A stretch of DNA of 64,000 bases. Source: the human T2T-CHM13v2.0 reference genome, Homo sapiens. Made by a program: the position numbers and the translations under genes. Where the stretch lies: the NCBI RefSeq assembly GCF_009914755.1, contig NC_060936.1, one strand, 5' to 3'. Below, in pieces: positions 1-25,116 of this stretch. Under the pieces are notes generated by a model. It did not search any database. It saw only the letters and a list, made by a program, of their open reading frames with translations, and was not told the DNA's origin. Each line of letters starts with the position of its first letter. Within the stretch, counting starts at the first letter, position 1.

Positions 1-239
1 ATATTCATACATTCATATTCATATTCGTTCATATATGTGTGCATACATCTACATACATACCTATATATGTGTATATATGGCAAAGTCATAAAAGCAAACA
101 GCAAATTGAGACAAATACATGCAGTAAATATGAAAATATATAATATCCTTATTGTATGTTGGGGAATATCAGCTATGTAAAATGGAAAGAGAAAGAAAAT
201 TTGCCATTTCAAAGTTAGTAGTAGCCTCTTTGTATATAA

Positions 240-790
240 TATGGCTGCACGTTGGGATTATCTTGGAAGATTTAAAACATTCTGATGCCTGGATCTGACT
301 GGAAGGTTCTGATTTAATTGTCATGGGGCATGGCCTGGACACTGAGTTTTCAAGATCTCTCCAGGTGTATTAGTCTGCTCAGGCTGCCATAACAAAATGC
401 CACTGTGTGGATTAAACAACAGAAACTTATTTTCTCACAGTTCTGGAGGATAAAAGTCTAAGACCAAGGTGCTGGCAGGGTTGCTTTCTGGTGAGGCCTC
501 TTTTTCTTAGCTTGCAGGTGGCTGTCTCTGTGTTGTGTCCTCACATGGTCTTTCTTCTGTGTGTATGGAGAGAGAGTTCTGGTGTCTCTTCCACTTCTCA
601 TAAGGACTCTAGTTCTCTTGGATCAGGGCTCCTCCCTTATGACCTCATTTAACCTTAATTACCTCTTTAAAGACATTGTTTCCAAATGCAGTCACACTGG
701 GTGTTAGGGCTTCAACATATGAATTTTGGGAGGACACAGTTCAGTCCATAACACCAATGTAGAGCTAAGGCAGCAAAGCATTGGTCTAGG
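240..790. mobile_element. MER5A-like hAT DNA transposon interrupted by MLT1A
   Basis: GGTTCTGATTTAATTG...TCTCCAGG matches the recalled MER5A body; resumes after 753. Confidence 0.6.
366..753 (-). mobile_element. MLT1A MaLR solo LTR
   Basis: TG...CA termini; reverse complement begins TGTTATGGACTGAACTGTGTCC...AAATTCATATGTTGAAGCCCTAA. Confidence 0.85.
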
Positions 791-1178
791 GGCAGACAGC
801 AAATCATTTTGAGGAGATTCTGTTACTTCTGTGAGAAACCACTCTGAATCTATGGCAACTTGTTATCTCTTGCCCTAGAAGTGCCCCAAGGAAGGAGGAC
901 CTTTCCTTGTGATTTGACAGAAGATCACTGTGGAGAGGGAATGAGGGTCCTTTCATGAGGAATGGGATCAAGATTTCGACCCCTACTTTTTTGATAGACA
1001 ACCTTCTAGTGGATTGAGATGATCTCAATGAAGGTCACCAGAAAGAAAAGATCCTAAAGGATCCCAAGAAGAATTTTTTGTGAGAGAAGAGGGAGTCTGG
1101 TAATCTGGGCCCAATGTGAGGCCATGTTTATAGCAGCAATCATAAAAACAGTGGCTTATTGCCCCAGGACTCTTTTAC

Positions 1179-1566
1179 CTGAAGTAATTTTGTTGGTCTC
1201 GCTCAAAGTGTTTGGCTTCAAAGTAGGTGACATTCAGTGATGGATAGTCCCACCAGGGTGTCATGGGTGGGAGAACATTGGTTCTCTAACGGAAAGATGA
1301 ATAGTAGTTTGGCAACAAACGGTAGATGTGCATCCTTCTTCCAGCTCAGGTATGAACTCGTTGAGGGCAATGACTGTGCTTGGCTGCACAGTTTCAACAT
1401 TCTTTGAAGATATGGAGGTAATTAATGATCAGTTCACTGCACTCTTCTCAGCTGAGGCTTGGCCTTAGACACTTAGTTTCCCTGCCTCCAGATTATTTTC
1501 TTGGACTTGTGAGCGATAAGTCATTGGAATGGAAGAAAGTCTTTATACACAAGTACCTTCTATGTT
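1179..1566 (-). pseudogene. Fossil exon candidate, 388 nt
   Basis: Strong acceptor CCTTTCTCTTTCAG, donor CAG|GTAAAA; RLSSIPMTYRSQVQENNLEAGKLSV*...TVIALNEFIPELEEGCTST with several stops. Confidence 0.5.
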
Positions 1567-3869
1567 CTGAAAGAGAAAGGTAAGAGGTGCCTCAGCCTTG
1601 GTGTTAAGCCTGTGAGACCCTTTGAGCCATGGGGGCAGAGGCTGCTGGCACTCGCCCTGGAAGACAATTTAATCCAGGTCTCAGCCATCCTTGAAGTTTT
1701 TTGCATGGTCTTAGTGAGTCTGTGTGAGCATCACTTCAGATGTGGTGAGAAGCTTACATGGAAACTATTACATCAAAACATTTCATTTAGTTGGGGGACT
1801 GTTTGGAAAAATCCTATTTTTTTTTTGAAGGAACAAAGAGAAGTTGATGAAAAGATTTGAGGTTATAATGACCAAAGTCTCCACTGCCTTCCTTCCCTCC
1901 CCTCCCCTTCTTCCAAAATGAGAGAAAAGAAATAAAGCTGGAGAAATATCTTGAATGTAATAAGTCTGGCAGGCCAGGCTTTTAGTGAGGATATCGTGTC
2001 ATTGTAATACCTTTTAATTATAGCTGTATAATTATAAATAGGAAAGAAATTAAAAGATGAAAATGTGGTTTGTAATGAAATTACCATAAATACCATGGCA
2101 GACTTTAAAGTTGTCATGCAAATTCATAATACAAAAACATGAATGTGGAAGTTAATTTCTCCTAAAACTAGAAATTAAAATTTTGTGGACTCGTGGTCTT
2201 CCTTGTTAGCTTGGCATTTCCTCCTGAGTACACATAAGCACTGTTAGTTATGCAGACATAAACAGACCTTTAAAGAGTTAGTGTCCTGGCTGGCAACCCT
2301 TATGTTCTCCAGGCCACCTGGGCAAGCTGACATAGAAATGACTCAGGTTCCAAAGACAAATGGTGGAGACATGAAAAGAAAGCTAGTCCAATTGCCTGGA
2401 CATTTTCAGTTACTTCTCCATTTGGAAGCAGGCATGTATTTTGTTTGTGATGCACGAGTTTATCTAGCCCTCTTTATTTAAAAGCCCATTTTACTTCCCA
2501 TTGAACTGACACATTTTCATGATTGAGGATAGGGGATCATAATTGCAAATTGCTACATTGGTCCTGAGGCCAAAACTCAAGGCAGTAGATTGGAGACTTA
2601 GACAGCTTACATCATCCTTTAGTGCCTTCATGCTTCCCACAGGCTAGCTCCTGTTTGTTGAAATACTGCTCATGGGGTCAATATCATGAGGTCAACTTCC
2701 TAAGCCTGTTCCTTAGCTGCACACTACTAAGACATCTTAAAAATGTGAAACCTTGATTCAAAGAGAGATCAAATAAGTGAGTCTGGCTCACTCACTATTG
2801 CAGACCTTTCTCTGACATTGTGAAAATGCTTAACACATGTACAAGTGATGGTAACTTGTGCCCTCTTTTTGCATATGAAAGAGACTTTTTTCTTTTTCTG
2901 AACCAAGAACAATTATTTTGCCATTTTAAAAAATACCATTGGCCTATGGGCTAGCACAATCAATTAAGAGGTATAATTTTATGCCTCTGCTATGAATAAG
3001 AGGTTATGCTGTGATGGCTACCTAAAGATAGGACAGCAAAGTAAATTTGAGGATGCCAAATAGAAAAAGATATTCAGGAAAAAAAGGGGTAAATTGGAGA
3101 AGGCCTTGTATACTGGACATTTTTTTTTTTTAAATATAGATAAGGAGACCCATGGAAGGTGTTTAGGCAAGGAAGTGACATGACAAAAGTGGTATTTTGG
3201 GATAAACTGAAAGAGAATAAGTAGGAAGGTGTTCACTGCCTGCCCTGTAGATTCTGTGGGAGCAGGAACACAGTGGCAACTGCCTGGCCTTAGTGTGATT
3301 CTGTGGGAGCCCAGCTCTTGGGAAGTGACTACTAAGGCTGTGTAGAAGGTCTGGCTCCTGAGAATTCTCTCCTCCCTCATCTCACTGTCTCCACCCAGTG
3401 GGCCAGGAGATTTCAAGTGAGGGATGTCGCCCTCTAAGCAGAGCAGTATCCCAGGTGGAAGAAAAGGGGGTTCTTGGAGGGCAGAAGCACCTGGCTGGGG
3501 ATGTTTGCAGCTGTGTGTCATAGTGGAGGTGAAGTTTGAAATGGCCTCGAGGGATTGGTCACATTTCTCTATACCCCTTTTTAAACTCTGAGGAAAGGAT
3601 CAATCTAAGACCTAGGTGACTTTGATTGGTCCCTCCGTCCAGAGCCACTGTGCTAGCCAAGCCAGCAGATGTGCTGAATACATCATGGGGGAAAAATATG
3701 GATAAATAGAGGAATTTGATTGCTATAAAATGAAGATAAGCTGAACAACCTATAGCAAAGGAAGTTAGAATTAGTGGACCAGAGACATAAGAATATAAAA
3801 CAAACATAAATAGCCACAAACGGGGGAAAAGATAAAAATATCAGAAATAGCAAAAAGAAATGAGCATCA

Positions 3870-4860
3870 CAAAGAATATTCAACTAGAGAATTGGGTAAT
3901 AAGAAAGCAATAGATGAAATGAAGAACTCAATAAAGGGATTGAAGAGCAGAATGTAAACTTTGGATTAACTAATCAATGACCTGGAAGTCTCAAACCCCT
4001 AGGCAGCAGTAAGAAAGAGAAGGACTGCAGTGTTTTTGAAAGGACAAAAGGTTAGCACTACCCTTGACAAGGATGGAAGAGGCCCTCAGGCCTAAAAATT
4101 AAAAAAAAAAGATGAGGACTTCATAAAAAAGAGAATTAAATGATATGGCATATAAAAATAGAAATGTCAACATGATAACAATTTCAGAATGAGCCTGGGC
4201 AAACATGGCGAAACCCCGTCTCTATAAAAAAATGAAAAATTAGCTGGATGTGGTGGTGCATGCCTGTGGTCGCAGCTACTCAGGAGGCTGAGATGGGAGG
4301 ATCGCTTGAGCTGGGAAGGTCGAGGCTGCGGTGAGCGGTGATTGCACCATTGCACTCCGGCCTCCAGCCTAGGTCACAGAGTGAAACCCTGTCTCAATTA
4401 AAAAAAAAAAAAAAAAAAAAAAGTAAAGTCTCAGAATGAGAGAGAAACAATAAACAGTAGTGGAGAACTATTTTGAATTAATGATAATCTACATAGAAAT
4501 ACAGATAAAAGCTTTAGATTGAAGGGGTTTCGCCGGTGTTGTACAGTAGAGATAAGAAAAAAAAATCAACACCTAGATACATTACATTATCAGGAAATTT
4601 AAGAACTTAAAAGAAGATTCCTGAGAGCAAGAGCAAATGACCTTGAAAGGAACAAGAATAAGCTGTCATCACACTTCTCAATAGCAACACCGGATGCAAG
4701 GAGACAGTGCAGCCATACTTCCAAAGCACGAGAATTTTGCTCCTGGGTTTTATACCCAGATACATTATCACTGAAATGCAAGGGGCAAAATGAAGATATT
4801 CTTAGGGATGCAAGGTCTAAGAATATTTATCTTGCAAGGACATGCTTTGAAATGCTGCTG
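3870..4860 (+). mobile_element. Old L1M ORF1-region fragments
   Basis: A-rich, decayed L1 ORF1-like sequence. Confidence 0.5.
4192..4422 (+). mobile_element. 5'-truncated AluJ
   Basis: GGAGGATCGCTTGAG (J-type), poly(A), flanking TCAGAATGA repeat. Confidence 0.9.
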
Positions 4861-4904
4861 TAGGACAAAAGGTCATTCTAGGAGGATGATAAGAATACTG
4901 GAAA

Positions 4905-5385
4905 TGTGTTAGTCAGTGCCCAGTCGGGAAGACAGAAATAATTTTAGATCATTCAAACTGAAAGGGATTTAATGTGGGGCGTTGATTCTAAAGATGTTTG
5001 GAGGAGCAAAAGGGAAAGGGTGTTCTACCCAGAGCTCAGGGATCTGCTAGCATACCTGGGAGAGAGTGTATGAGCCACCCTCACTGGGGTCACTGCTGGA
5101 ACCATGGAGCCATTGTCCACCAGTGCCACTGAAACCACAGGGCTGACATTGAGCAGGAGCCACCTACCTCTGCTGCTGCAGCTGAGGCACTGTCAGAAAC
5201 AATGGCCCCACCCTTATTTCTACTTGCCAGTCAGGTGCAGTTCCCCCAGATTGGCAGAACCAAATTTAACTTTAGCTGTCAAGGAAGTCTGGGGAATGTG
5301 GCTTTCTGCTTACCTGTCTTCCAGAGGAGAATATAAGAGAGTGAGTATGGGGCTAAAGGCCAACAGACAAATATCTGACCTTGGA
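4905..5385 (-). mobile_element. Old MLT1-class LTR
   Basis: TGTGTTAGTCAG terminus and AAGGAAGTCTGGGGAATGTGGCTTT motif. Confidence 0.5.
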
Positions 5386-5941
5386 GCTAAGGGTCTGTAA
5401 ACAAACTAGAAAAGTTAATTCCTGTCCAAATGAAGGGAACAAAGAGAGAAGACAAGAAAGGCACACCCATTACAATCTAGAACAAAACCCGACAATACCA
5501 ATATGACCAATACCAACGTGACCAACTAAAGCAACTGTAAGATACCACTTTATGGACATCAGAGTAGCAAATATTATAAAATTGAATGATTCCAAGTGTT
5601 GGCAAGAATTTAGGGGAAAAAAGGCATGTGAGAGTTAACTGGTACAGACACAATCTAGCAATACTTAGAGAAACCAAGGGTGTATTTATATTCTGTATGA
5701 TCCATCCAACTGACGCCTGGGAATATACACCAGAGAAACGCCTGCAACATATCCATAAAGGGCCATAATCAATTATGTCCCCTGCTACCTTTTATGTGGT
5801 AGCAGACAGGTAGATGAGAAATTAGGTGTCTATCACTAGGAAGTTGAATAAACAAAATTTGATGGGGTACATACTATGGAATATACACCAGGTATATAGG
5901 AACACTATGGATAGACAAAAACATAGTGATAGGTAAAAATA

Positions 5942-6285
5942 CAGATGATCCCCAACATAGGATGTTTCGACTTAGATGTTTTGACTTTGTGATGGTTGGA
6001 CATTTATAGACATTTAGTAGAAACCATACTTCCAGCACTCATACAATCATTGTGTTTTCTGCTTTCAGTACAGTATTCAGCAAAGTATATGACCTGTTCA
6101 ACACTTTGTTATATAATGGGCTTTGTGATAGATAATTTTGCCTAATTGTGGGCTAATGTAAGTGTTCTAGGTTAAGCTGTGATGTTCAGTAGGTTAGGTA
6201 TATTAAAGGCATTTTCAATTCACAATATTTTCAACAGTAACAGGTTTATCAGGATGTAACCCCACCATAAGTCAAGGAGCATCTG
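5942..6285 (-). mobile_element. MER47A (Tigger-type DNA transposon)
   Basis: CAGATG...CATCTG terminal inverted repeats, TA on the left flank; reverse-complement match to the 10681 copy. Confidence 0.85.
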
Positions 6286-6373
6286 TGATAAAAAGTAGAA
6301 TAAGACTTTTAGCACAATTTACTATGAAAAATAACACACATACACAAAAATCACTACATGGCTTTTAAGAATA

Positions 6374-6923
6374 GTGCAGTGGGTTGAATGGTATGTCCAC
6401 ATTCCCAAAAGATATGTCCACATTCCCAAATTGTGAATGTGATTTTTTGGGTAAAAGGAGTCTTTGCAGATGTAATTCAGTAAGAATCTCAAGAAGATAT
6501 CATCCTGGATTATCTAGGGGGACTTTAAAATCCAATGACAAATGTTCTTATAAGAGACACACAATAGAGGCAGGGGACTGTGTGAAGACAGACAGAGATT
6601 GGAGTGGTTTACAGGTTGAATGTACACAGCAAGTATACAAATGTATATAGAAAGCAGACCTTTGGCTAATATTAGCTTTATGGCACAGATAAACTTATAA
6701 ACTGTATTATTATAAGCCACAAGCCAAGGAACACATGGAGACACAAGAAGCTGAAAGAGGCAAGGAATGGAATCTCCCCTGCAGCCTCCGGAGGTTGTGT
6801 GACCCTGCCAACACCTTGATTTTGAGACCTCTGCCTTCCAGAGCTATGAGAATATAAATTTCTGTGGCTTTAAATCACCAAGTTTGAGAAAATTTGTTAC
6901 AGCAGCTACAGGAAGCTAATGCA
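6374..6923 (+). mobile_element. MLT1C-like LTR with an insertion of about 100 bp
   Basis: TGCAGTGGGTTGAATGG...GGAAGCTAATGCA; consensus broken at 6607-6711. Confidence 0.85.
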
Positions 6924-7316
6924 GACAGCTATCCAAGAACATACGTTGGCACACATTACAGTGTCTATGGTGAGGAAGGTTAGGGGAGTGGAGTGGATGA
7001 AAATGGGTAAAAATAAAATGAAAAAATGAGTCTTGGACAAATTAATGAGACAGCCTGCCACAACTGAGGCATATGACCAACTCCATGTACCTGAGGTTTT
7101 AAAAATGTAATTTCCCATTTCAATTTACCATTTCCTTTGAATTCTAGAAGGATTATATATTTTCTATCTTTGCTAATTGGGGTTTTTTACTTTCAAAGAA
7201 TAATCTGGTCATGGACTGTGTATTTGTCCATAAAGTTTCCTGATTTTCATGATAATTGTTTTTAATAATAATTTCATAATTGGATGAGCTTTTCACATAT
7301 AAGATTATTAGCTATA

Positions 7317-7629
<313 letters not shown>

Positions 7630-8284
7630 AAGATTATTAGCTATAAATACATTAGCATATATAAGCTACAAATATATATGTCATATTAGCTACAAATGTA
7701 CAGTATTAAGTCTGTTGCTTAGCTTTTTCCTTTGACCTACACAAGTCTGGAATTGTTATGTAGTTAAACACGTAACAGAGCGTTCTTTACAAGTTTACCT
7801 GTGCCATAAAGCAAACCTTAGGCAAAAGCCTGCCTTCTGTATACATTTATATACTTGTCTGTGTACATTTAATCTATAAATCACAGTAAAAGCAACTTAG
7901 CAGAGAAGGAAGTGATTGGTCTTGATTTGAAATCCCCCCAAATAAAATCTCTGCAATAAATAATGGCCCTAAGAAGCTGTTGGCTGGCATTTATGGTGAA
8001 ATTTCATTTGTATGTTTTATTCTTCATTCATTCATATCCTTTAATAAAATGTGAATTTGAGAGCTTCTTTGGGCAAATACTATTGATATAGACAAGATAA
8101 TAAATAAGGACATAGGCAATGATGGCCCATGGCCTTCAACTTCAACAATGAAGATAATTCAAATGTGGGTTCTCTAGAACACGAATTTTTGTTGGTTTGC
8201 AATCCTTATTTCCTACAATTCTGCTTGGCCTCAAGAATTGAGACTCCACCTCCACGCTCTTTTCTGACTAGTCCCTGATGGTTC

Positions 8285-8770
8285 CGAATTGGTTTCCTGT
8301 GACTGCTGCAACAGGTTACCACAAACTTCGTGGCTTAAAACAACACAAATTTATTCTATTAGAGTTCTGGAGGTCAGGACCATGAAATCAGTTTCACTGG
8401 GCTAAAGTTACAGTGTGAGCAGACCTGGTTCCTTCTGGAGACTCTTGGGAGAAACCGCTTTCTTGCCTTTTTCAGCATCTGGCAGCTGCTTATATTCCTT
8501 GGCTTGCGACCCTTTCCTCCATCCTCCGAGTGTAACACTCCCATCTCTGCTTCCATCATCACCTCCTCTGACTCGAAGTCCTCCTGTTCCACTCTCAAGA
8601 GGACCTTGTGATTAGATCAGGCCCACCTAGATGATCCAGGATACTCTCCGTATCTCAGCATCCTTAACTTAATCACATCTTCATGTCCTTTTTGCTAGAT
8701 ATGATAACATTTACAAGTCCAGGGATCAGGATAGGGACACATTTGGGGGCTGTTATTCATCCAGCCATAG
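8285..8770 (-). mobile_element. MLT1C/D-like LTR
   Basis: GGCTTAAAACAACACAAATTTATT...GTTCTGGAGG body. Confidence 0.8.
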
Positions 8771-9417
8771 TTCCTGACCACAGTGAGGCAAACATTCTGA
8801 ATTTCATTCCCACAACACTGAAGGGCCTAGATTTGCCGTGTTGCAATAAGCAATCCTGTGGTATGTGTGGGGTGAGTACTAGGGCTGCTGTGAGCCCACC
8901 AAACCACAGGCTTCCTCAACACCTGTCGTGTTGGGTCACATTATAGAATTAATGTTCCTCCTGGGGTTCTTTTCCTGTTTATGACCTCAGGTCCACTGCT
9001 GGCCTAACCTTGGCAGCCTCCTACTCTGGTGGGCTGCATGGTGTCACCCCATTATCAGCCAAAACGGCCAGGGGACTGGCTATGAGTCACAATGATGCCT
9101 CTACTGACCACAGTGGATGAGACCTCTGGATTTGGGCATCAGCTGTTTTGCAGTCCACATTTTTCTCCTCTGCGCTTGGTCACATTACAGTCACAGTATT
9201 ATTACTGTTGCCCATTCTTGAGGACCAGGGTCACAGCCTGCCCTATCCTGCTTTGTCCTGGCTCTCCTGTCATGAGTGATGACAGCTTGCAGCCAAACTG
9301 TGAATGCTGTCCTGGGAAATCTCTCTGAAGGTTTCTAGATCTCTAAAGCTATAACGTGAGGTTACAGTCAGCCTGCCTGGGGTCTACAGAGGTTGGATAG
9401 CAGTGACAGGAGATTAC

Positions 9418-10078
9418 CTTGGCGAACTGCACACTGGGGTCTTCTTCCACACTGTTCCCTCTTTCCCTTTAGGACCTGTCCTCGCTCCGAGTATTAGGTA
9501 GCTATTGCTGTGTTACAAATTACCCCCAAACATAGCAGTTTAAAACAAACATTATCTCACAGCTTCAGTGGGTTAGGAATCTATATGTTCTGGCTATAAC
9601 TTCCTGTTCTTCACAAACCTACAGTTAAGGTATTGGCCAGGGCTGGAGTCATCTCAATGTTCAACCGGGATTGGATCTACTCCCAAGCTCACTCACATGG
9701 CTGTTGGTAGGCTCAGGTCCTCACTGGCTGGGAACATTGGTCCCTTGATTTATGGGCCTCTCTATAGAGTATTACAATATGGCAGCTTATCTTCTGCAGA
9801 ATGAGGGGTGGTGGCGGGGGTGGAGGGAGAGAGAGAGAGACAGAGAGAGAGAGAGACTAAGACAGAAGCCATGATCTTTTTTTAATTATCTAATCTTGGA
9901 AGTGATTTTGCTTCTGCCTATTTCTATTTGCTAGAAGCTAGTCACTAAATCCAGCCCACACTCAACGGGGATGGGATCACACAGGCAGTAAGTACCAGAA
10001 GGCAGGGATCCCTGGAGGCCACCTTAGTGGTTGCCTGAAACATCCCGAGAGGAAGTCAGGGAGAGAGAATACCATCTG
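9418..10078 (-). pseudogene. Fossil exon (103 nt when reconstituted) split by an MLT1 LTR
   Basis: Acceptor CTCTGCTCACTCCTAG, donor AAG|GTAATC; removing the LTR and one TSD copy gives open QMVFSLPDFLSERGQVLKGKREQCGRRPQCAVRQ. Confidence 0.55.
9490..10042 (-). mobile_element. MLT1E/F-like LTR with internal (GA)n
   Basis: GTATTAGGTAGCTATTGCTGTGTTACAAATTACCCC...GCCTGAAACA; degenerate 5-bp TSD CTCCG/TCCCG. Confidence 0.8.
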
Positions 10079-10240
10079 CTAGGAGTGAGCAGAGTTCACA
10101 TGAGTTGAGAGGGGCCATAGGGACCCTGAAGATAAGGTGTGTCATGAGCACAGTTTCCTGGGACCTCGATTGTTGTGAGCATTGACTCATACTTCCATGT
10201 ACATTGCTCCCTTTTGGCCTGGGCTGCTCTCTGAGCTCTA

Positions 10241-10423
<183 letters not shown>

Positions 10424-10519
10424 TTACAACAGATGGGAAAGGGATGAAAACACCTGGGAATCACTGAGTCAAAACAACTCATCTGGGCATGCATAAAATG
10501 TTATCTCATTTTTTTTTTC

Positions 10520-11100
10520 TGGAGTAGAAAGAACATAGACTACAGAGCTTGATAGATCTAGCTTAAATTCCAGTTCTACCACTTACCAGCAGAGTGACCT
10601 TATGTTTTTTTCCTCATTTGAAAAATCTGGTAACAATACATAACTCTCTGGGTTGTACTGGGATTGATCAAAACAATATACAAATGCTCCTCAATTTATG
10701 ATGGGGTTACATGCTGATAAACTGATCATAAATGGAAAATATCATAAGTTAAAAATGTATTTAATATACTTAACCTTTTGAATGTAGCACCTTAACCTGG
10801 ACTTACCTTAATCTTGCTCAGAACACTTACATTAGCCTACAGTTGGGCAAAATCATCTAACACAAAGACTACTATAATAAGGTGTTGAATAGCTTATATA
10901 ATTTATTGAATACTGTACTGAAAGTGAAAACAGAATGCTTGTATGGGTACTTGAAGTATGGTTTCTACTAAATGTGCATCACTTTTGCAACATCATAAAG
11001 TAAAAAAAAAAAAATTGTAAGTTGAACCATCATAAGCCAGGGACTACCTGCATGTGAAATGCTCATGGTACACTGCATGGTACCCAGGAGGCATTCTAAC
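10520..11100 (+). mobile_element. MIR interrupted by MER47A
   Basis: MIR core TTTCCTCATTTGAAAA; resumes after 11050. Confidence 0.6.
10681..11050 (+). mobile_element. MER47A
   Basis: CAAATGCTCCTCAATTTATGATGGGGTTAC...GGGACTACCTG, preceded by TA. Confidence 0.85.
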
Positions 11101-11434
11101 TACAGAGCTCTGTACCCTTCCTTTCCCTTCATTATCCAGTTATCCGGTACGTGCATAGTGCTGACGTATCTTGGCATTGGCTAGCCAATTATCCAGAGCA
11201 TCCCAGCATGCATGCAAAGAAAACTGCTCAGTGAGAATGGCTGTCTTTGTAAGGAGAATGTAGGGCTGGCTCTCTGCCTAGGATGCAGGGGTCAGTGGGG
11301 CTGCCGCCAGCCGTCTGCAGTGTTAGCCAGGGAAATCAACTCACAGTCCTCCTGGCATCTACTGCTGGACTTGGGTAAACATAATTACAGCCTTTAAAAA
11401 GAGAAGAGGGAAAGCAACCAAGATCCCCACTCAC

Positions 11435-11747
11435 CATGTAAACAGGATGTCCACTGAATGGCAGCATGGAGATGTTTATGTTCTGTTCAGGGGACAATTG
11501 ACAAAAGGCCTCTGGGAGCCTTTATTGCTGCCTGGGGCAGTGGCCTGCCAGCAGTGGTGGGGCTTGGGTTCTTCTGGGCATTGTGTGATTGTGAATGCTG
11601 AGCTTCAGCTGAGAGCTCTGGGGCTCTGTTGTCTGTAGCTGGGATGCAGTCCTTTGAGACTCTGGGTTGGTTGCCTGCCAAAGGCCCTTCATACAGATAA
11701 GGTCATTCTGGTGTCCAGTGCACAGTTTCCAGCAGGCCTCCAGTGAC
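11435..11747 (-). pseudogene. Fossil exon candidate, 313 nt
   Basis: Acceptor ATTATTTCATAG, consensus donor ATG|GTGAGT; one frame has one stop in 104 codons and ends ...FSGHPVYM in phase 0. Confidence 0.55.
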
Positions 11748-12060
11748 CTATGAAATAATGATCTTAACAACAGCCACCACTTAGAGCAAGGCAGTGGGCT
11801 AAATACTTCACATGGATTATCTGATTTACCTTTCACGATAACCCTTTGCATAATTTTATCATCCTCATTTTATAGCTGAGGAGGCTCTGCAAATGTAGGC
11901 CACTGGATTTGAAGTCAGATCAGCTGGATCCTCAAACCTGAGCTTAATAGTAAGCTAGGTGAAGGCAGGGACTATCTGTCAAGTTCAGCATGCTATCTCT
12001 AGGGCCCAGCATGTGTCTGAGAAAACATTTATTGACGAAATGACTAAAAAAAAAATCTAC

Positions 12061-12346
12061 CAAAATGCTGTCCTCCACTGACTTTCTGCAGCACGTATTT
12101 TTTTTCCCCAGAGTGAGATTGTGTTGCACTATTTGTTCCACATGTCCCTGCTTCCACCGCAGTGACCCAGGGCACACATTGGTCAATGATGGCTGCCGTC
12201 GAGTTTTGGGTACCTACTGAGGCATAAATGTTGTGGAGTAATTGGACATGTGTCAAACCACGAAGCCAAATCTTGCTTCAGTCCAGTTTTCTGTGGAATT
12301 TTAGGCAAGGAAAGCATCTTTTGGGACCATCAAATGCATCCTGTTC
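12061..12346 (-). pseudogene. Fossil exon candidate, 286 nt
   Basis: Acceptor CTGTTTCTGCTCCTTCAG, donor TTG|GTAGAT; the phase-0 frame has one stop in 95 codons (EQDAFDGPKRCFPCLKFHRKLD*SKIWLRG...GGQHF). Confidence 0.55.
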
Positions 12347-12778
12347 CTGAAGGAGCAGAAACAGTGAAAGCGGACACTTGTCTCAGCTGGCCTCTGTCTC
12401 TAGCATGAAATCCCTGGAGAGTGATTTTGCAGCCCCTCTTCCAGAACACAGGTGGGTTTGAGTGGAGTTGTGAAGATAGCCTGAGCATGTTTCTCAGAAA
12501 TGTCAGGAGGTGGTCCTTCTACCTTTAGAATTCTAAATAGAATTGGCCAATACTTGAGTGAAGGGAGGAGGCAAGCTTGCTTGTAGAAAGAACTAGGGCA
12601 CTGACATGCCTACTCCAGAATACAGCATGGCCCTTCTCTAAAGTCTGAACTTTTAGATCAGAGGGAGACACAGCCTTCAGCCTTTCCCTTCTCCATTCAG
12701 GTCTCCTTGTGGAGAGACAATGAGTGGTGGCAGGAACTCCCCTGAAATGGATCTGCCTGGAGCTGAGGCCATAATTAC

Positions 12779-12850
12779 CTCAATGTTGCTAGCATGTCAC
12801 AATCAAGAGCAGGTCGTTGTTTTTAAATGGTCAAAGTTGTAGGAGTATCG
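12779..12850 (-). pseudogene. Fossil exon candidate, 72 nt
   Basis: Strong acceptor CTTTTTATTTTTCAG and donor GAG|GTAATT; all three frames contain stops. Confidence 0.55.
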
Positions 12851-12939
12851 CTGAAAAATAAAAAGCATTTCAAAGACTGCCCAGATTGGTGGTGTTTGTG
12901 TTGTTTGGGTGATGGTAAGATACTGGAAATGAAGAGGTC

Positions 12940-12940
<1 letters not shown>

Positions 12941-12977
<37 letters not shown>
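12941..12977. repeat. (TG)18 microsatellite
   Basis: Direct reading. Confidence 0.98.
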
Positions 12978-12978
<1 letters not shown>

Positions 12979-13563
12979 TTTGTTGTTGATGGTGAATTTT
13001 TTGTCATGGTAACCATTACCTTCTGAGCTATGGACCTCTGTCCCAAGATCCTGGAGCCGTAAATTGTTGAGGTGTCCTGTTGAGACACACGAGACCTGCA
13101 GATAGGCCTGGGATTTCAGGAAGCAGTCTGCGACCAAAGGTATCCTTCAGCATCCTTCTCAATGGCCTCTTTTCCTATGTTCATTCATTCCTGCACCCAG
13201 CTTGGCCTTCTATCATCTTGCTGTCCTGAAGCCCCTGGCTGTGTAGTCTAAGCTCCCACTCCAGGAGGTTTTCTCACAGGGCCCAACCCCACACAGCACA
13301 GCGGCCTTGTCCTGCCCCCCGGCATGCTAGTGTGTGACGTTCTCTTTATCTTTCTATATGAAGAGAAGTCCTATACTTGTTCATACCACTGTACATTTGG
13401 AATAGGCTGGAAGGACATTTCCTGGGCCTCTAATCACTTCTTCTGCCCACATTTCCTATACAACCTGGCTTGGCGTTTCTACTTCCAATCTGCTTGAGTC
13501 AGTGCCAGATTTGGGGCTTGATGCTGTGCATATGTCACCTGCTTCCTAGTCTCAGCTGCTTAT

Positions 13564-13564
<1 letters not shown>

Positions 13565-13614
<50 letters not shown>
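13565..13614. repeat. (AC)25 microsatellite
   Basis: Direct reading. Confidence 0.98.
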
Positions 13615-13616
<2 letters not shown>

Positions 13617-14268
13617 CCCTACATCCAAACTCTGGCTGTACTTAGAGCATCCTTCATTTAAGGGTATAAAAGTCGAGTATCGTGAGAGAAGGATGGGATG
13701 GGTTATTTTCTTTGGGTCAGTTACCTTTTGGTTTAATAAGCAATATCCAAGAGGCATGAAGATAATAGTCCCTGGTTGGAGAATCTCCTTTTTGTCACTC
13801 TTAATATTTCCCCTTTGAGTTGCCATTGGATACGTATACTCCATCAAGTCTGGAGTCCAACCTCACAGGCATGGGTTTGGAGCTAAGCTTCTGCTGACTG
13901 TCACATTGGGCAGGCAGTGGGGACCACAGAAGTTCCAGGTGAGCTGATGGGATTTAAAGAATAGTCTTGGAATTAGGGATGTGGAAAGTATCAGTATTTA
14001 TCTTTGGTACAGGTGGCCTTCCTGTTCTGGAACCAAACATTTTCCCTCAAGAAACTCTTTTTCATTCTCAAGTCACATCAGCCATAGTCACACATGGGAT
14101 CAATCCCCTACTGGTTTTTATTATTGTGACTGGGAATTGTGATCCAATCCACTCCACCAGCCCACTACCCGCTAGCCTTATTGGCCTATTGCAACCTACC
14201 CATGTGTGTGGCCAGGGAGGGCTACGCTCCTTCCCTCTGGTTTCTGTTTTCCCCATGGTTTCCATGTG

Positions 14269-14289
14269 GCTGCTGCTGCTGCTGCTGCT
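14269..14289. repeat. (GCT)7 triplet repeat
   Basis: Direct reading. Confidence 0.95.
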
Positions 14290-15640
14290 TCCTCTTGGCT
14301 CTGCCCCGGCTCCAGCCATCTTCCCTATCACTGGTGGTTGCTGCTTCTGCAGGGCTCTGATTCTAGGAGTTTCTCTTACAAGGCACAGCTCCACAAAGCA
14401 GAGTAGCCTTGTCCAGCCTCCCTGGCATGCTAATGTGTGACACTCTCTTTATCTTTCTATATGAAGGGAGGTCCTATACTTGTTCCTGCCACTGTACATT
14501 TGGAATAGGCTGGAAAGAAATTTCCTGGGCCTCTAACCACTTCTGCCCACATTTCCTATACAACCTTGGTTGGCGTTTCTATTTCCAGTCTGCTTGAGCC
14601 AGTGCTTGAGCTTGCTGCTCTGCATATATGTGACCTGCTTCCTAGTCTCATGCCTGCCTATATAGCACAAACACTGGAGGTATACAAACCTTCGAACCCC
14701 ATCTATGCTGCCATGGCTCCAGAAAGCACCATGATCCTTCCAAGCTTGGCTAAGGGTTCTTTACAGATCAAAATGGAAGGACATTTTTTGCCTCCTTAAG
14801 TGACAGGGCTTTCCACCAACCTTCCAGTGGAAATATTCCTATGATAATTCAGTTTCATAACTAGCTTGCTAGAGTTCTAGAGAAGCACCCCAACTTATGA
14901 ATAAGTTCAGGTTCAGGAAATGAGGCAAGATTGTTCAAGTGTTTGAGGCGTGAAGCTCTGATCATCAACCCCAAAGGTTTCCTTTTCCCCTCTCTCAGGG
15001 AGTCTGGAGCCCTCAGCAGTTGAAAACTTTCCTTCATGGTCTTCTTGAAAACTCTGAGTGCCCACACATAACACAAAACTCCCGTTAGCAGCATTTTCAT
15101 TCTCAAGGAGACCTTTGGGGTCCATACAGATTTTTTTTTTTCAGGCTAGCCTAAAAATTGTATTTTTTGAAAAAGAAAAAAGACATTATCTGTAGCTTGA
15201 GAGGCAGAAATTGTTTCTTTTTAAAATGCTTTGTTGTACTTTCTAAGTTTTCTGCACTTTAAAAAAAATAAGATTCAAAGAACCCAGCACATATTTACTG
15301 TTAAACCTGAAAATATTTCTCAACCCCACTCACTTAAGAATCTATATAGTGGGAATCATGTTTTCTAATGCCCTTAATTGTCTTAAAAATTTATCTGTTG
15401 GTTGTCAGTTAAATAAACACCCAGATGTGCTATTTTATAGATCATACAACATATCAAATGTACCCCTTTTTATCCTCTGTATTCTGCATGGCTCCTTGGT
15501 CCCTGGCTTTCAGAGCTAAGCTTAAGTTCTTTGTCAAGGCAGGTTAACTATAGCAGACAGAGCTCTCATCTCCTCTCAGCTCAAAGGAGTAAGTGACTGT
15601 TGTGGTTCATCTATGGGAAACTGTGCTAGCAGAGCTTTAC

Positions 15641-15792
15641 TTTCCTGGACCTGCCGCAGAATGAGATAGAAAGGGAAGGAGCTATAGCCACAGCATCTGG
15701 GAAGGCTGTAGTTCCTGCTGATGCTCTTGGCTCAGTCAATAGAAGAACAAACATGAGGATCAAAAGGATGCTCATAAGAGTCTTTGTGGAAG
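15641..15792 (-). pseudogene. Fossil exon candidate, 152 nt
   Basis: Strong acceptor CCCCTTCTTTTTTTGCCCTCCACAG, donor AAA|GTAAAG; the in-phase frame is open for 50 codons. Confidence 0.55.
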
Positions 15793-16279
15793 CTGTGGAG
15801 GGCAAAAAAAGAAGGGGATAAGATCTGAGTAGAAAGAGACTAAAAATGAATTCAAATTCATTAGCGTTGCTGGTGGAGACTGTTAATGATTCAAAGTATT
15901 TATTTGGATCAGAGAGTCACGGGACTGTTCAATTGAGTGTTTATTTAGAAAAATAGAGCTAGCAGACTCTCCAGAAAGTATAAATTGGGCTTTGGCAGGA
16001 AACCAGCTTCTTTTTGCCATCAGAATGTCATGCGAGCCTCAGGAATGGCAAACATCTGTTTGAAGGATATCCTGACCTTGAATCAGCAGAAAACTCAGAA
16101 GAAACTGCATCAGGATTTGATGTGTAGTTGTCATTTAAGACAGCAAGTGCAGTGGGCATCATTGTGGCCAAGTATTAACAATGGACCAACTATTCAATAA
16201 ATATTTGCTGAATGTCTACTATGTGCCAGTTACTGCTATGTGCTGGGGATACAATAGCTACTAGGACATACCTATGGCC

Positions 16280-16905
16280 CAAATAATTTATTGCTTCACA
16301 TAGACACTGGGATAAAAGTTCACAGTGTGTTGTCATGAATACACTGTACATTTACCGTGTTCTTTTCTTGTGCAAGTTAGAATTTGGTGGACAATTACAA
16401 TGGATATAATATACATCAGTAAGAGAAGCTAAGCCTAGCTCACTATCTTGTACTGCCTAGTTAGCCATTTTTTTTTTATCTCTTGACCATTTACTCATTA
16501 AAATATTGGCAGGCCCACTGAGGGTGGTTGTGTTAAGATTAAAATTATGAAAATATCCTGAAATTCATGAGCATAAGTTTGCTTTTGCACATTATGCAAT
16601 GTGAAAAATACTTAGTTTTCAAATTTTTAAAAACATTTCAGAATTGTAGCTTGTAGTCCTAACAACTTGGAAGGCTGAGATGGGAGGATCACTTGAGCCC
16701 TAGGAGTTCAAGACCAACCTGGGCAACATAGTGAGATCTTGTCTCAAAATAAATTTTTTTTTCCAGAATTGTAGATAAGAAATGATGGACTTAGAGTACT
16801 AGTGAAGAGTGTACAGTGTAATTCAAATAATTTATTGCTTCACATAGATACTGGAATAATAGTTCATAAAATGTGTTGCCATGAATATACTATACTTTTG
16901 CTGTG
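16280..16905 (+). repeat. Direct repeat of about 80 bp (16280-16359 and 16824-16905)
   Basis: Both copies begin CAAATAATTTATTGCTTCACATAGA. Confidence 0.95.
16650..16755 (+). mobile_element. FLAM / Alu monomer fragment
   Basis: GGAGGATCACTTGAGCCCTAGGAGTTCAAGACC; flanking CAGAATTGTAG repeat. Confidence 0.85.
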
Positions 16906-16991
16906 ACTATATCATCAGATTTACCTAGAAAACAATAGATTTTTTCCTTACAAACAAATTTAATTGGAGGAAAATCACCACCACCTCTTAC

Positions 16992-17080
16992 TGATCTTTT
17001 GCCATTCATGTTTGGGTTGTTTCCCATGTTTCAAGGCTGGTATTCCCTTGGGATTGCTCTGCTAGTCGACTTCTTGTGAA
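16992..17080 (-). pseudogene. Fossil exon candidate, 89 nt
   Basis: Acceptor TCTGTTTCCTATTTCACACTACAG, donor TCA|GTAAGA; SQEVD*QSNPKGIPALKHGKQPKHEWQKI, in phase with the previous exon. Confidence 0.55.
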
Positions 17081-17450
17081 CTGTAGTGTGAAATAGGAAA
17101 CAGAATACCACCAGAGCCACACTAAAGCTTCTGAATTGGAGCCAGGAAGTATTTAATTTGATGCACTAAACAGCATAAAGCCAACATCCTGGCTCATGAC
17201 CCCAGTGGTATCAGCATCAACAGCTGGATGAAAGCAGGGGTGGGGGGGATACAAAGATGGGTTGGTGAATACAACCCACTTGCCTTGAGTCTGCATTTGT
17301 GCATCCCAAACTTCTTCCTGGCTTTGTACTTTCTGTTCCCTCTATCTGGAACACACTTCCTTACGACTTTTGAAGAACCAGTTTCTTCTCATCATTTAAG
17401 CATCAGCTGTGATGACACCTCTGAGGGAGGCATTCCTTGACCACCCTATT

Positions 17451-17834
<384 letters not shown>

Positions 17835-18267
17835 TGATCTTGTCATTTGTTTGCTTATTTACTTGTTTATTATTTTTCTGCTTCACAGAGTAAAGACCTA
17901 TCTGACTTGTCCATTGGATCCTTAGTCCCTAGAGCAGTACCTGGCACATTAAGGGGCCAAATAAATATTTGTTGGATACATGAATGACCCTTGTGATATC
18001 ACTAGTTTCCCTATTTTATAATGGCTGAACCACTCTCATCCCAACATCTCAGTGATCCCTTTGTGACAAGTGTCCCAGAAGAAAAATATTGCAAATGTGA
18101 GAAACATGATGGGTCACAAAGTGTGGTAGAATATTACATCAGCTTCATAAACTGTGAATCATAAATCATGGTTCCATCTGTTCTGTGACAGAGTGAAAAC
18201 AGCAAAATTTTCCACAAGATAGAAACTAAAAACAAAGACAAGTCACAAGTTTCAACTCATGGAGTAC

Positions 18268-18390
18268 CTGTTACTATTATTTTGGATCGTTTCCCCTGTC
18301 CTCTATTCTTCAGCAACCATTTCAGTCATGCTGTGCCTTTCTGGAACAGGCTCAAGAATCTACTCGTAGTAGATATTGGTTTCCTCCAAT
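18268..18390 (-). pseudogene. Fossil exon candidate, 123 nt
   Basis: TTTAG acceptor, CAG|GTACTC donor; LEETNIYYE*ILEPVPERHSMTEMVAEE*RTGETIQNNSN; phase does not match the 19813 end. Confidence 0.45.
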
Positions 18391-19184
18391 CTAAACGTTT
18401 TTTGCCCTATAACTTCATGCTTGGCACAGAGAAGCCACTCAACAAATATTTGTTGACTACCAACTGTAATTTCCACTATTATAGTATTCTTCTTTGATTT
18501 TTTAAAATAAAATAAAAATATCCTTTAGAAAAGGTAATCTGCTTATAAAGAAAGCCCATTTATTCACACTCTAGTATTAATCTCATTGAAAGATTTGATG
18601 GAGTATAGAGTACAGAACAGTTTTTTGAACATGGATTATTACAGGAAAAGTCTGGGTGTGGCAAAAGGTGTCCTGAGGAGTGATGGGATGTTAGGGCATG
18701 AAGAAGAATGAAGAAGAGTGTCCAAGACAACTGGTTCATGTTGCAATTTTACTGAAGGTCAGCAAAGTGGAGAATGCTGTTCTGGGAGAACTGGATGCCT
18801 TCAGATTGTGCCAGGTAAAGGCAAGGGGTCACCAGGACCTCCTTGGGTCAACCAAACCACTGTCTCAGTATCTAGGAGAAATTAGATTAAAATGAAGAGC
18901 AGTACACAGATGACAGTTCTGAGAAGCTTCTCAAGAAACTCATAGCAGTGATTGCTCCTGGAGAACAAAAATGAAGGATGATAGGGTGGTGGGTGGTCAG
19001 TAGAATTTTATTTTCCTCCTTATAATTTTTTCTAGAGTTTTAATTTTTTTCCCATGAGAAAGTATTGATTTCACAATTATAAAATTCAAAAATTAGTAAA
19101 AATCATTCTTTTTTAGATTTAGCCATATTAAAATTCTAGCTTAATAAAAATAAATATCAAAACAAATGTAATAAAATAGCACAG

Positions 19185-19543
19185 TGCTGTGGTTTGAATA
19201 TTCTCAAACACATATTGAAATTGAATTACCATTAGGATGGTATTGAGAGATGGGATCTTTGAGAGTGGCTGGGTCATGAGGGCTCTGCTTTCATAAATGG
19301 ATTAATACTGTTATTGTGAAAATGGGTTCCTGATACAAGATTAATTTCAGCTCTCATTTTTCTCTCGGTCTTGTATGCTCACCTTTTGATGCTTTCCCCC
19401 ATGTTATGACACAGTAAGAAGGCCCTCACAAGATGCAGACTCTTAATCTTGGGCTTCCCAACCTCCAGAACATGTCTCTTTTCTTTTTAAATTACTTAGT
19501 TTCTGTGGTATTCTGTTATAGCAGCAAAAAATAGAACAAGATA
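19185..19543 (+). mobile_element. MST-type MaLR LTR
   Basis: TGCTGTGGTTTGAAT...GGTATTCTGTTATAGCAGCA. Confidence 0.8.
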
Positions 19544-19812
19544 TAGGAGGATGTCACAGCAAGGTTGAAATTAATATATCATGATAGAAGAAAAAACCTT
19601 GCATTTGTAAGACACAATTATTCATGCAATTTTTAAAATCTCTGTAGAATGTTGTTCAACCTTCTCAAGACATAATAGCAGCACTGAAAGCAGACCCAGT
19701 AATGGTTCTAGAACACAGATCCTTCAGGCTTAAGCTTCTCTGACATATGGGCCCTACTCTACTCATTCCATTTTTCTTGTGACCTTCTTTCCTTTTTTCT
19801 CTCTCTCATTAC

Positions 19813-19934
19813 CAGTTTAGACTGTTGCCTCTCTGAGTGATTTGAATTCAAATCCCTCAAGAGAAGAACTGATTTGTCACTACATGGTATTCAGGGTAGG
19901 AATAATTTCCTGGCTTTCTTTATTCCCCTTGTAT
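19813..19934 (-). pseudogene. Fossil exon candidate, 122 nt
   Basis: Donor CTG|GTAATG; in phase with the previous exon: (D)TRGIKKARKLFLP*IPCSDKSVLLLRDLNSNHSERQQSKL. Confidence 0.4.
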
Positions 19935-21629
19935 CTTTGCCATAAAATGCAGTCAGCTAAGGGCATGTGTAAATGCATCTGATTTTTTCATCCTGAAAGT
20001 TTCTAACACACACCTCCTGCACTTAAAAAATCCAAATACTGATTCCTTACATTTAGAGCACACTAAATAGATTTTCAAGCCCTCATATGCACTGCCTTAG
20101 TTCATCTCTGGCAGAGAGGGGCTCTCCTATTGTGATCTCCTTCTAAAATGAAAGGGCTGTTTAAATCATAACTGCATGTAGGGAAAGAAGGTTTGCACAC
20201 AGGTATGAAGGTATTATGATCTACAGCTGTTGGGGAGTAAAAGGTTTTTCCAACTACTGTCTGCTTCTGGAACAGTGGACCTTGTTTAGTCTAGAAGTCA
20301 CTGAGCAAGCAGGGCACCATGGTTGTACCCAAGCGTTAGTCAAATGCTTTCAATAATTGTGGTTTGTGTAAGAGAAGAATTGTGCAGAGTTGGAGTGATA
20401 TTAGGGTTACATCAAAACTTTTTTGAGGGTTTTCTTCATTTTCTTCTCCCACAGTTTAGAAAGGGCAGGAGACTCTCATGTGGGAGAACTATATTAGGTG
20501 TGCCTTTATTTGGAACAGAGTGAAAGACCACAGAGACTGAGCCATCTTCTGCTCCTGTGATTTTGTTCAGCGTTTTCACACGTTAATGTTTGTCTGACTT
20601 CTCCTTAATTGCAATAAGTTACAGCCCCCTCCCCAGCCTTTCAGTAGTTTGTTTCTAAAAAATTCCTTGCAGGCAAACTTCTTGTAGGTTAAAAAAACAC
20701 AAGGAATTTACATTGAAATTAACAACACATACTTACTTTAAAAATTAAGTGTATATACATACATGTAATTGAACCTTGGCAGAGAGACCTATCTGTCCAC
20801 CCAAAATACATTCTTCCCCCTCTATAGGGGAGGTCTGAGCTCTGACATACAATAAAGAAGGGAAAGTGTCCTTGAGGGTCATTGTCCAGACAAAAGGCTA
20901 CATTTTCCAGCCTTTTTGCTGCAAATGTGAGCATGTGACTGCTTCTTGCCACAGAAGTGAGATAATATGTATCACTTCTGGGCTGGGAACATCTGCATTG
21001 AACTGAATAACAAGAAAAAAACTTTATTTTGCAAAGCTACTGAAATTTGAGGTTTATTTATTTCTTAAGCTGAGGGTCAGGAAACTTTTCTGTAAATAGC
21101 CAGATAGTAGATATTTTGGGCTTTGTAGGACACATACAGTCTCTGTCTCATATTCTTCTTTTTGTAAAAACTACTCTTGACTCACAAGTTACACAAAAAC
21201 AGCTGCAGGTTTAACTAATTCAAGTTTTTAATACAATAAAAAACAACAAAAAACTAACACAATGAAAACAATGTAAATGGTGCATGAGATGTCACTACTA
21301 TTAACTAGCAACCTATGAGGACTCAGGGAGAAGACCCTTAGGTCACCTTAGCCCACCGTTCCACCGTGAAAATAACTGCACTGTGGCTCTCCCATTGTGG
21401 TGCTTAAGTGCTCCCAAGTCAGTACTATTTAATTGGTTCTCATAAATACAGGAATGCCTCCAAAGTTAAAGTTGAAGCAGTACATGAAACTAATAGAAAA
21501 GTAAATTCCTACAGCCTTAATTGGAGTACCTCAGAGTGTGGCTGCTTTACTGCTTTCTCTCCCACTTTCTCAGCTTTGTCATCATACAGCATTTCTTATA
21601 CTATTGCTATACCTAGTTCAGTGCTAGAT

Positions 21630-21780
21630 CTGACCGGAGTCTTCCAACAATGCATCGACATCCACCAGCAGATCTTGAAGCTCTGCGTGGTAGGACTCCA
21701 AGATGGCGTCTACATTTCCTCGGCCCCCACCCTCACACTACTTGTCATGGTTGCCAGACTTCCTGTTGGTATGCAGGTAT
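21630..21780 (+). promoter_or_regulatory. Putative YY1/ETS promoter and first exon of a plus-strand transcript
   Basis: CAAGATGGCG (21699-21708), ACTTCCTGT (21758-21766), five CpGs in about 95 bp, donor CAG|GTATTG after 21776. Confidence 0.4.
21635..21762 (-). pseudogene. Fossil exon candidate, 128 nt
   Basis: CCAACAG acceptor, GTCAGA donor; KSGNHDK*CEGGGRGNVDAILESYHAELQDLLVDVDALLEDS (amphipathic-helix-like). Confidence 0.55.
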
Positions 21781-22100
21781 TGTCAGGCTTGGCACCTTCC
21801 ATTCCACCCAGGCCCTTGTCTCAGTTGGCACAGAATCCAAGACCACACAAAACTTTTAGGAAAGTTATTGTCCAACAATAGAATGAATAGATAAATGGTA
21901 GATTATTCTGCAGCAACAACAATGGAAATTTGGAAGAATTGAAAATAGTATGAGAAAAAGCTTATAACAGCATATTACATAAAAACAGCAGAATTGCAGA
22001 TTATATATTCAAAATGAATTTAATTGTGTAAAAACAAAGACTTGAAGGAAGTACACTAAAATATTAACAGTGGTATTCCTGGGTGGTAGATTATGAGTGA

Positions 22101-22415
<315 letters not shown>

Positions 22416-24622: not shown

Positions 24623-24788
24623 CCACTTAATTAGTTTTAGAAACTTGGATGCCTCCAAGTTTCCATTTATGTTTCATTTTGTTTCTGTAAATCCACTTGG
24701 TCAAATTACTACATTTTTGGATTCTGAGTATCTTCCATAAAGCCTAACACATCATAGACTCAACAAATCTTTGTTAATAAACAGAAGA

Positions 24789-25116
<328 letters not shown>

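What the first reader, a model, noticed from the sequence alone, without database searches (positions are those of the whole stretch)
9418..10078. An ancient MLT1 LTR sits inside a fossil exon, giving a timestamp for the gene's loss
Seen: the acceptor (10079-80) and donor (9416-17) lie on opposite sides of the LTR. Excising the LTR and one 5-bp TSD copy yields a 103-nt exon with an open frame, QMVFSLPDFLSERGQVLKGKREQCGRRPQCAVRQ, in phase with the upstream exon ending ...PVYM. Established: MLT1E/F-class MaLR elements spread before or around the placental radiation. Inference: this exon, and probably the gene, was lost very early in eutherian evolution, so intact orthologues are best sought in marsupials, monotremes and reptiles.
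Basis: partly seen in the sequence, partly recalled or inferred. Interest (0 to 1): 0.75.

Follow-up and report, generated by a model that had tools for sequence, protein, structure and literature searches.

The report
LTR-split exon, likely opposite strand
An old retroviral-type repeat does sit here, but the exon it most likely split reads on the opposite strand from the one proposed, is probably part of a decayed unannotated gene, and does not by itself show that the gene was lost before placental mammals diversified.

Summary
The LTR is real: a 553-nt MaLR-type solo LTR at 10042-9490 (minus strand). Such a splice pair covers about 4% of random positions, and no protein homologue was found. 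Removing the LTR gives a much stronger exon on the PLUS strand: 9473..[LTR]..10136, 106 nt, one open frame, matched by 0.08% of positions. It is in phase with the next plus-strand acceptor (11489-90), where a block conserved in two database ORFs (probably from other mammals) begins; one of those ORFs is inferred open for 83 codons in that frame. The best reading is a decayed plus-strand gene of unknown family (about 0.45). The early-eutherian date is unsupported: the LTR clock spans the boreoeutherian split, near-intact minus frames contradict long decay, and pig has an annotated mRNA gene (LOC106510322) between TBC1D30 and WIF1, whose link to this locus is positional only.

The parts
9490..10042 (-). 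Solo MaLR (MLT1-type) LTR, 553 nt, TG at 10042, terminal base 9490; contains a CT/C-rich microsatellite at about 9800-9880
   Evidence: 48 listed genomic matches; ends from 27 copies; median pairwise K2P 0.344. The MLT1E/F label is recalled, not tested.
10043..10047 (.). Target-site duplication, copy next to the LTR 5' end
   Evidence: Strict boundaries, 3 of 5 matches to the other copy; in 13 full-length copies the matches ranged 0-5, mode 3
9485..9489 (.). Target-site duplication, copy next to the LTR 3' end (may have lost one G)
9440..9472 (+). Polypyrimidine tract and AG acceptor (9471-72) of the candidate plus-strand exon
   Evidence: Score 12.8; 5 of 4503 plus-strand AGs score this high
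9473..9489 (+). 5' piece of the candidate plus-strand exon (12 nt plus one TSD copy)
10043..10136 (+). 3' piece of the candidate plus-strand exon; the empty-site exon is 106 nt, stops 4/3/0 by frame, enters in phase 1 and leaves in phase 2
   Evidence: single-copy DNA; no Pfam, PDB or paralogue match
10137..10142 (+). GT donor of the candidate plus-strand exon
   Evidence: Score 9.0; 25 of 3527 plus-strand GTs score this high
11491..11743 (+). Next candidate plus-strand exon: acceptor AG 11489-90 (score 9.7), phase-compatible; human has a stop at 11636-38 and inferred 1-nt and 2-nt deletions near 11668 and 11695; its donor is not defined
   Evidence: homologous ORFs P0003 and P0005
11490..11549 (.). 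Block conserved between human, P0003 and P0005, starting at the plus-strand acceptor
   Evidence: 16 of 20 columns invariant versus 9 of 26 outside the frameshifted part; permutation p 0.002 at that position, 0.028 for any window
9418..10078 (-).
11435..11747 (-).
   Evidence: One stop in human; forced stop in P0003 in this frame; no homologue

Best explanation
A 553-nt MaLR-type solo LTR lies at 10042-9490, and it likely landed inside a 106-nt PLUS-strand exon (9473-10136) of a probably protein-coding, now decayed and unannotated gene, whose next exon would start at 11491. Shown: the LTR, its ends, the strong plus-strand acceptor and donor on either side, the single open frame and the phase match. 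Inferred: a full MaLR provirus inserted antisense to the gene and recombined to a solo LTR (established for this class). The insertion either broke a constitutive exon (106 nt is not a multiple of 3, so skipping shifts the frame) or hit an already dead gene. The exons have since decayed at about the LTR's rate. The loss probably happened on the lineage to human near the boreoeutherian split rather than in stem eutherians, so pig LOC106510322 is the first candidate for an intact orthologue.
For: One open frame of three. The exit phase fits the next strong plus acceptor. The stop at which P0003, P0005 and the human minus frame all end is the reverse complement of that acceptor's TCAG, and conservation peaks there. 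The first 4 inferred changes after the acceptor are all synonymous in the plus frame. Human-guided back-translation leaves P0003 open for 83 codons in that frame, with the first stop near 11743; its own indels are multiples of 3, and P0005 has a sense codon where human has the stop. Only 6 of 163 strong AGs are followed by 83 open codons in a preset frame. Human lesions in this exon (1 stop, 2 frameshifts) fit neutral decay since the LTR, 2.6-3.5 frameshifts expected. Pig has an mRNA-class gene between TBC1D30 and WIF1 (passages and table rows).
Against: No protein family, structure or paralogue for the plus frames. The back-translation copies human bases at unseen positions, which are the second codon positions of the plus frame, so it inflates openness and identity. 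The second exon has no good donor (best 4.6-5.1). No convincing upstream exon in the right phase: 2 candidates, one starting inside another repeat. Identity at fixed positions for P0003/P0005 (0.81-0.82) is no higher than for P0002, which runs through intron-like DNA (0.80). All three were found with one minus frame, which biases them to in-frame matches. Splice matrices are recalled approximations, and the plus exon was noticed after the fact. Cattle, sheep and dog gene lists name nothing between the two genes, and a chicken paper calls a variant there intergenic. The pig link is positional only.
Confidence: 0.45

Rival explanations
1. No exon on either strand: an ordinary old LTR in single-copy non-coding DNA; splice-like signals and open frames are chance, and the block at 11490-11549 is a small non-coding conserved element or noise.
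For: No homologue anywhere. Dozens of stop-free stretches of 70 codons or more in the window. The minus-strand chain score is matched by 2-13 of 114 control segments. 11435-11747 has no CpG at 53% GC. The locus is absent from two fossil-gene surveys.
Against: The plus-strand pair is a 1-in-1200 event per point. It coincides with a phase-compatible, conserved downstream acceptor.
Confidence: 0.27
2. The plus-strand exon is real but non-coding: an old or still-used exon of the plus-strand lncRNA LINC02389, now 664 nt long with the LTR inside, with no bearing on any protein gene's loss.
For: LINC02389 spans the region on the plus strand (annotation given with the finding). Both splice sites are still strong despite about 0.17 substitutions per site in the LTR. 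No protein match.
Against: The RefSeq transcript lists no exon here. One open frame, the phase match and the in-frame indels of P0003 point to coding.
Confidence: 0.18
3. One reading: a minus-strand 103-nt coding exon, in phase with the PVYM exon, of a gene lost in stem eutherians.
For: AG, GT, the open frame and the phase are present. The upstream donor is strong (9.8). LINC02231 is transcribed on this strand. 3 independent CpGs in the flanks, reached by 3.4% of windows.
Against: Common by chance. 5 of 20,000 simulations keep both exons near-intact after LTR-level decay. Forced stop in P0003, and a human stop inside the conserved block. No homologue. The TSD is shifted.
Confidence: 0.08

Closest known systems
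MaLR (ERVL-MaLR) MLT1 solo LTRs, MLT1E/F group
   Same: About 550 nt (13 full copies, 491-596 nt), TG...CA ends in copies, 5-bp TSD, many dispersed copies at 65-79% identity. The Repbase review lists MLT1E-F2 under MaLR (PMC5753468, one table passage).
   Different: Terminal A reads T, and it carries an internal microsatellite. The subfamily was not assigned, as no Dfam/RepeatMasker library is on hand.
Unitary pseudogenes and lncRNAs from genes with lost coding potential (Hezroni 2017, PMC5577775; Wen 2023, PMC10195156)
   Same: Single-copy decayed exons inside lncRNA loci, with transposon insertion as a proposed route of loss (passages).
   Different: Neither paper's supplements mention TBC1D30, WIF1 or the lncRNA names searched. 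No parent protein was identified here.
Retroposon presence/absence dating (Kriegs 2006, PMC1395351)
   Same: Uses filled versus empty sites and TSDs to time events at the placental root (passages).
   Different: It needs orthologous sites in several orders, which were not available here. That paper shows MLT1A/A0 copies restricted to Laurasiatheria or Supraprimates, so the family name alone does not date a locus.

Membership tests
MaLR MLT1 solo LTR | Dispersed multi-copy homology over the whole element | tested here: met
MaLR MLT1 solo LTR | TG...CA termini | tested here: met
   TG at 10042; the 3' end reads CT here but CA in 13 of 23 copies
MaLR MLT1 solo LTR | 5-bp target-site duplication | tested here: inconclusive
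   3 of 5 at strict ends, 4 of 5 with one gap; within the range of 13 other copies
MLT1E/F subfamily | Best match to a library subfamily model | not testable with these tools
   No Dfam/Repbase models; the length agrees with recall only
Unitary pseudogene (plus strand) | No intact paralogue in the same genome | tested here: met
   (search sensitivity limited)
Unitary pseudogene (plus strand) | Exon-intron structure with compatible phases | tested here: inconclusive
   One strong exon plus one strong acceptor; second donor and upstream exon undefined
Unitary pseudogene (plus strand) | Disabling lesions | tested here: met
   LTR insertion, stop at 11636-38, two inferred deletions
Unitary pseudogene (plus strand) | Intact syntenic orthologue under coding constraint | tested here: inconclusive
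   P0003 inferred open, codon test not significant; the pig gene is linked by position only
Gene lost in stem eutherians (reader) | Minus-strand frames homologous to a known protein | tested here: not met
   the databases may lack vertebrate spliced proteins
Gene lost in stem eutherians (reader) | LTR shared by Laurasiatheria and Afrotheria; exon whole in marsupials or monotremes | not testable with these tools
   No other vertebrate genomes are held; scans gave no mammalian DNA

The most novel reading that the evidence does not exclude
An unannotated plus-strand unitary pseudogene between TBC1D30 and WIF1, orthologous to the expressed pig gene LOC106510322 and of no known protein family, was killed on the lineage to primates by an MLT1 insertion into a constitutive exon; its remains lie inside the lncRNA LINC02389.
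Probability: 0.25. Interest if true: 0.55.

Novelty: new member of a known kind. Interest (0 to 1): 0.38.

Why it matters
If the plus-strand reading holds, it adds an uncatalogued gene loss in the human lineage with a datable transposon lesion. It would point to a living copy in pig, next to the WIF1/LEMD3/HMGA2 region studied for ear and body size, and could explain the origin of LINC02389. It is one more unitary pseudogene rather than a new mechanism. It also shows that a strong splice acceptor on one strand can look like a purine-rich exon on the other.

Tried and rejected
Pfam on minus 9001-24800 and plus 9001-14700 and 20001-24800, in three frames each: no family, apart from one hit at E 0.18. 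Positions 1-9000, plus 14701-20000 and everything above 24800 were not scanned. PDB: only E of 0.1 or more. Word-index protein searches: 0 of 28 candidates, 0 of 4, and no candidates. The profile-free scan of one minus frame gave 15 hits; I examined 5 (P0001-P0005). P0001 and P0004 are near-human, and the other 10 all cover the CA-repeat part of the query and were set aside. Own-genome protein searches gave only microsatellite noise or chance hits. No mammalian DNA came from the viral or prokaryote collections (the single match is in an archaeal record, taken as chance and not aligned). A minus-strand HWRP frame was considered and dropped as not significant. The exon-chain model was too permissive to decide and was run on the minus strand only. 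The tandem duplications show no clear codon bias. No description of the pig gene was found in 4 papers or in the supplements searched; the supplements held for PMC12391826 and PMC9496231 were very short, so unseen tables may name it. PMC3758187 had no MLT1 passage. Structure prediction was not attempted on such short, decayed pieces.

Full report
Observation. The insert is a dispersed repeat with 48 listed matches, from 40 of 734 candidates scored. Against 27 fetched copies its ends are 10042 and 9490, giving 553 nt. The excised length is still 558 nt, so 103 nt stands, but a 104-nt reading is also possible and is open in two frames. Both flanks are single-copy. The MLT1E/F label is recalled. 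The Repbase review places these names under MaLR (PMC5753468, one passage), but no library was available to assign the subfamily.

Chance. All splice scores use matrices recalled from general knowledge. An open exon as good spans 0.4-1.3% of 12,680 points when each site must match, and 2-7% with looser cut-offs. By summed score it spans 4.1% of 199,752 points, and 2 of 26 strand-trials on 13 other copies' empty sites reach it. The best minus-strand exon chain is equalled by 2, 6 or 13 of 114 overlapping control segments, depending on the stop penalty.

Homology. No Pfam family was found in the frames scanned (one hit at E 0.18). Nothing credible came from PDB, the three word-index searches or the human paralogue searches. 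These databases appear to hold genomic ORF calls rather than spliced vertebrate proteins, so the blanks are weak evidence. One minus frame gave 15 hits. Three of the five examined (P0002, P0003, P0005; 37-57% identical) look like orthologous DNA of other mammals, which is an inference from divergence.

Clock. Median pairwise K2P to 27 copies is 0.344 (range 0.256-0.487), or about 0.13-0.17 per lineage, with about 0.014 frameshifting indels per base. The copies are top hits and mix subfamilies, so this is rough. At recalled rates of 1.5-2.2e-9 per year it gives about 60-115 million years, which spans the boreoeutherian split. Under this decay a 103-nt exon survives intact in 1537 of 20,000 runs, with the 313-nt upstream exon in 5 of 20,000, and a four-exon chain in 0 of 20,000. 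Kriegs 2006 (PMC1395351, passages) shows the youngest MLT1 types still inserting after the superorders split, so only orthologous sites can date a locus.

The opposite strand. The control showed that the same empty site makes a better exon on the plus strand. The acceptor at 9471-72 scores 12.8 (5 of 4503 AGs reach this) and the donor at 10137-38 scores 9.0 (25 of 3527 GTs). The exon is 106 nt with stops 4/3/0 by frame, and its summed score is reached at 0.083% of points. The exon leaves in phase 2, which fits the next strong acceptor at 11489-90 (score 9.7). The stop at which P0003, P0005 and the human minus frame all end is the reverse complement of that acceptor. Conservation peaks there: 16 of 20 columns invariant versus 9 of 26, p 0.002 at that position and 0.028 for any window, after dropping the frameshifted columns (with them p 0.00075). 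The first four inferred changes are synonymous in the plus frame. With human-guided back-translation P0003 is open for 83 codons, P0005 has a frameshift, and human has one stop and two deletions not seen in the other two. That matches the 2.6-3.5 frameshifts expected from decay since the LTR.

Results against this reading. Exon versus intron identity is not significant (p 0.07-0.17). Guided back-translation hides second codon positions. The second exon lacks a good donor, and no convincing upstream exon was found. P0002 shows no coding pattern on the plus strand. The hits were found with one minus frame. The plus frames were never run against the large protein sets.

Other species in print. 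Pig Sscrofa11.1 has LOC106510322 in SSC5 29.3-29.4 Mb, with TBC1D30 before and WIF1 after (PMC7318759, Table 2 passages and 2 of 16 supplement rows). The older build has LOC100512657 in the same interval (PMC4090188, table). LOC106510322 is listed among mRNAs in muscle (PMC9496231, table) and as differentially expressed in piglets and conceptus (PMC12391826, PMC9305853, passages). Its strand and product were not found. Cattle (PMC12075139, PMC8519023), sheep (PMC6568386) and dog (PMC13332154) lists name no gene there (passages). A chicken paper calls a variant there intergenic (PMC10047989, passage). The supplements of Hezroni 2017 (4 files) and Wen 2023 (1 file) do not mention the flanking genes or lncRNA names. 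The locus may not be in Hezroni's lncRNA set (using recalled hg19 coordinates), and Wen's survey is rodent-referenced. Ten literature searches (listings) showed no paper on a lost gene at this locus.

Mechanism and verdict. Shown: a solo LTR with a degraded TSD between strong plus-strand splice sites. Inferred: antisense insertion into a frame-shifting constitutive exon, reduction to a solo LTR, then neutral decay. An insertion in a constitutive exon would show only that this lineage's copy was dead no later than the insertion; it says nothing about other orders until the orthologous site is seen. At best this is a new member of a known kind; interest 0.38.

Noticed in passing
window 13252-13576 and 14354-14674: Local tandem duplication, 82% identical overall, with a more conserved core of about 186 nt; no other copy found in the genome; no clear codon bias.
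   Followed up: partly
window 23480-23721 and 24376-24622: Tandem duplication, 91% identical including flanks. The first copy holds the strongest plus-strand exon-like unit in the window (23578-23666, scores 11.2 and 12.1); the second copy has lost the donor GT. It may belong to the same plus-strand gene or lncRNA.
   Followed up: partly
window 16280-16359 and 16824-16905: Short duplication, 84% identical.
   Followed up: no
window 21600-21760: Single-copy CpG-rich patch (5 CpG) with a CAAGATGGCG motif (YY1 or start-codon-like, recalled) opening a 65-codon plus-strand frame; possibly a promoter or retrocopy remnant.
   Followed up: partly
window 9488 and 10046: Both TSD copies keep a CpG despite the LTR's age; unexplained.
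   Followed up: partly
window 11522-11527 (-): AATAAA followed by a T-rich tract inside the conserved block; a minus-strand polyadenylation site is an untested alternative.
   Followed up: no
window 12110-12113, 12699, 14997, 20826 (+): Further very strong plus-strand acceptors (12.2-14.4) that may mark more exons.
   Followed up: no
window 4030-4124 (+): U6atac pseudogene confirmed by Rfam, 60.6 bits.
   Followed up: yes
window 8290-8760, 6400-6930, 360-760, and 5939-6286 versus 10680-11053: Other old repeats that match each other within the window; MaLR-like LTRs and a DNA-transposon-like pair by recall.
   Followed up: no
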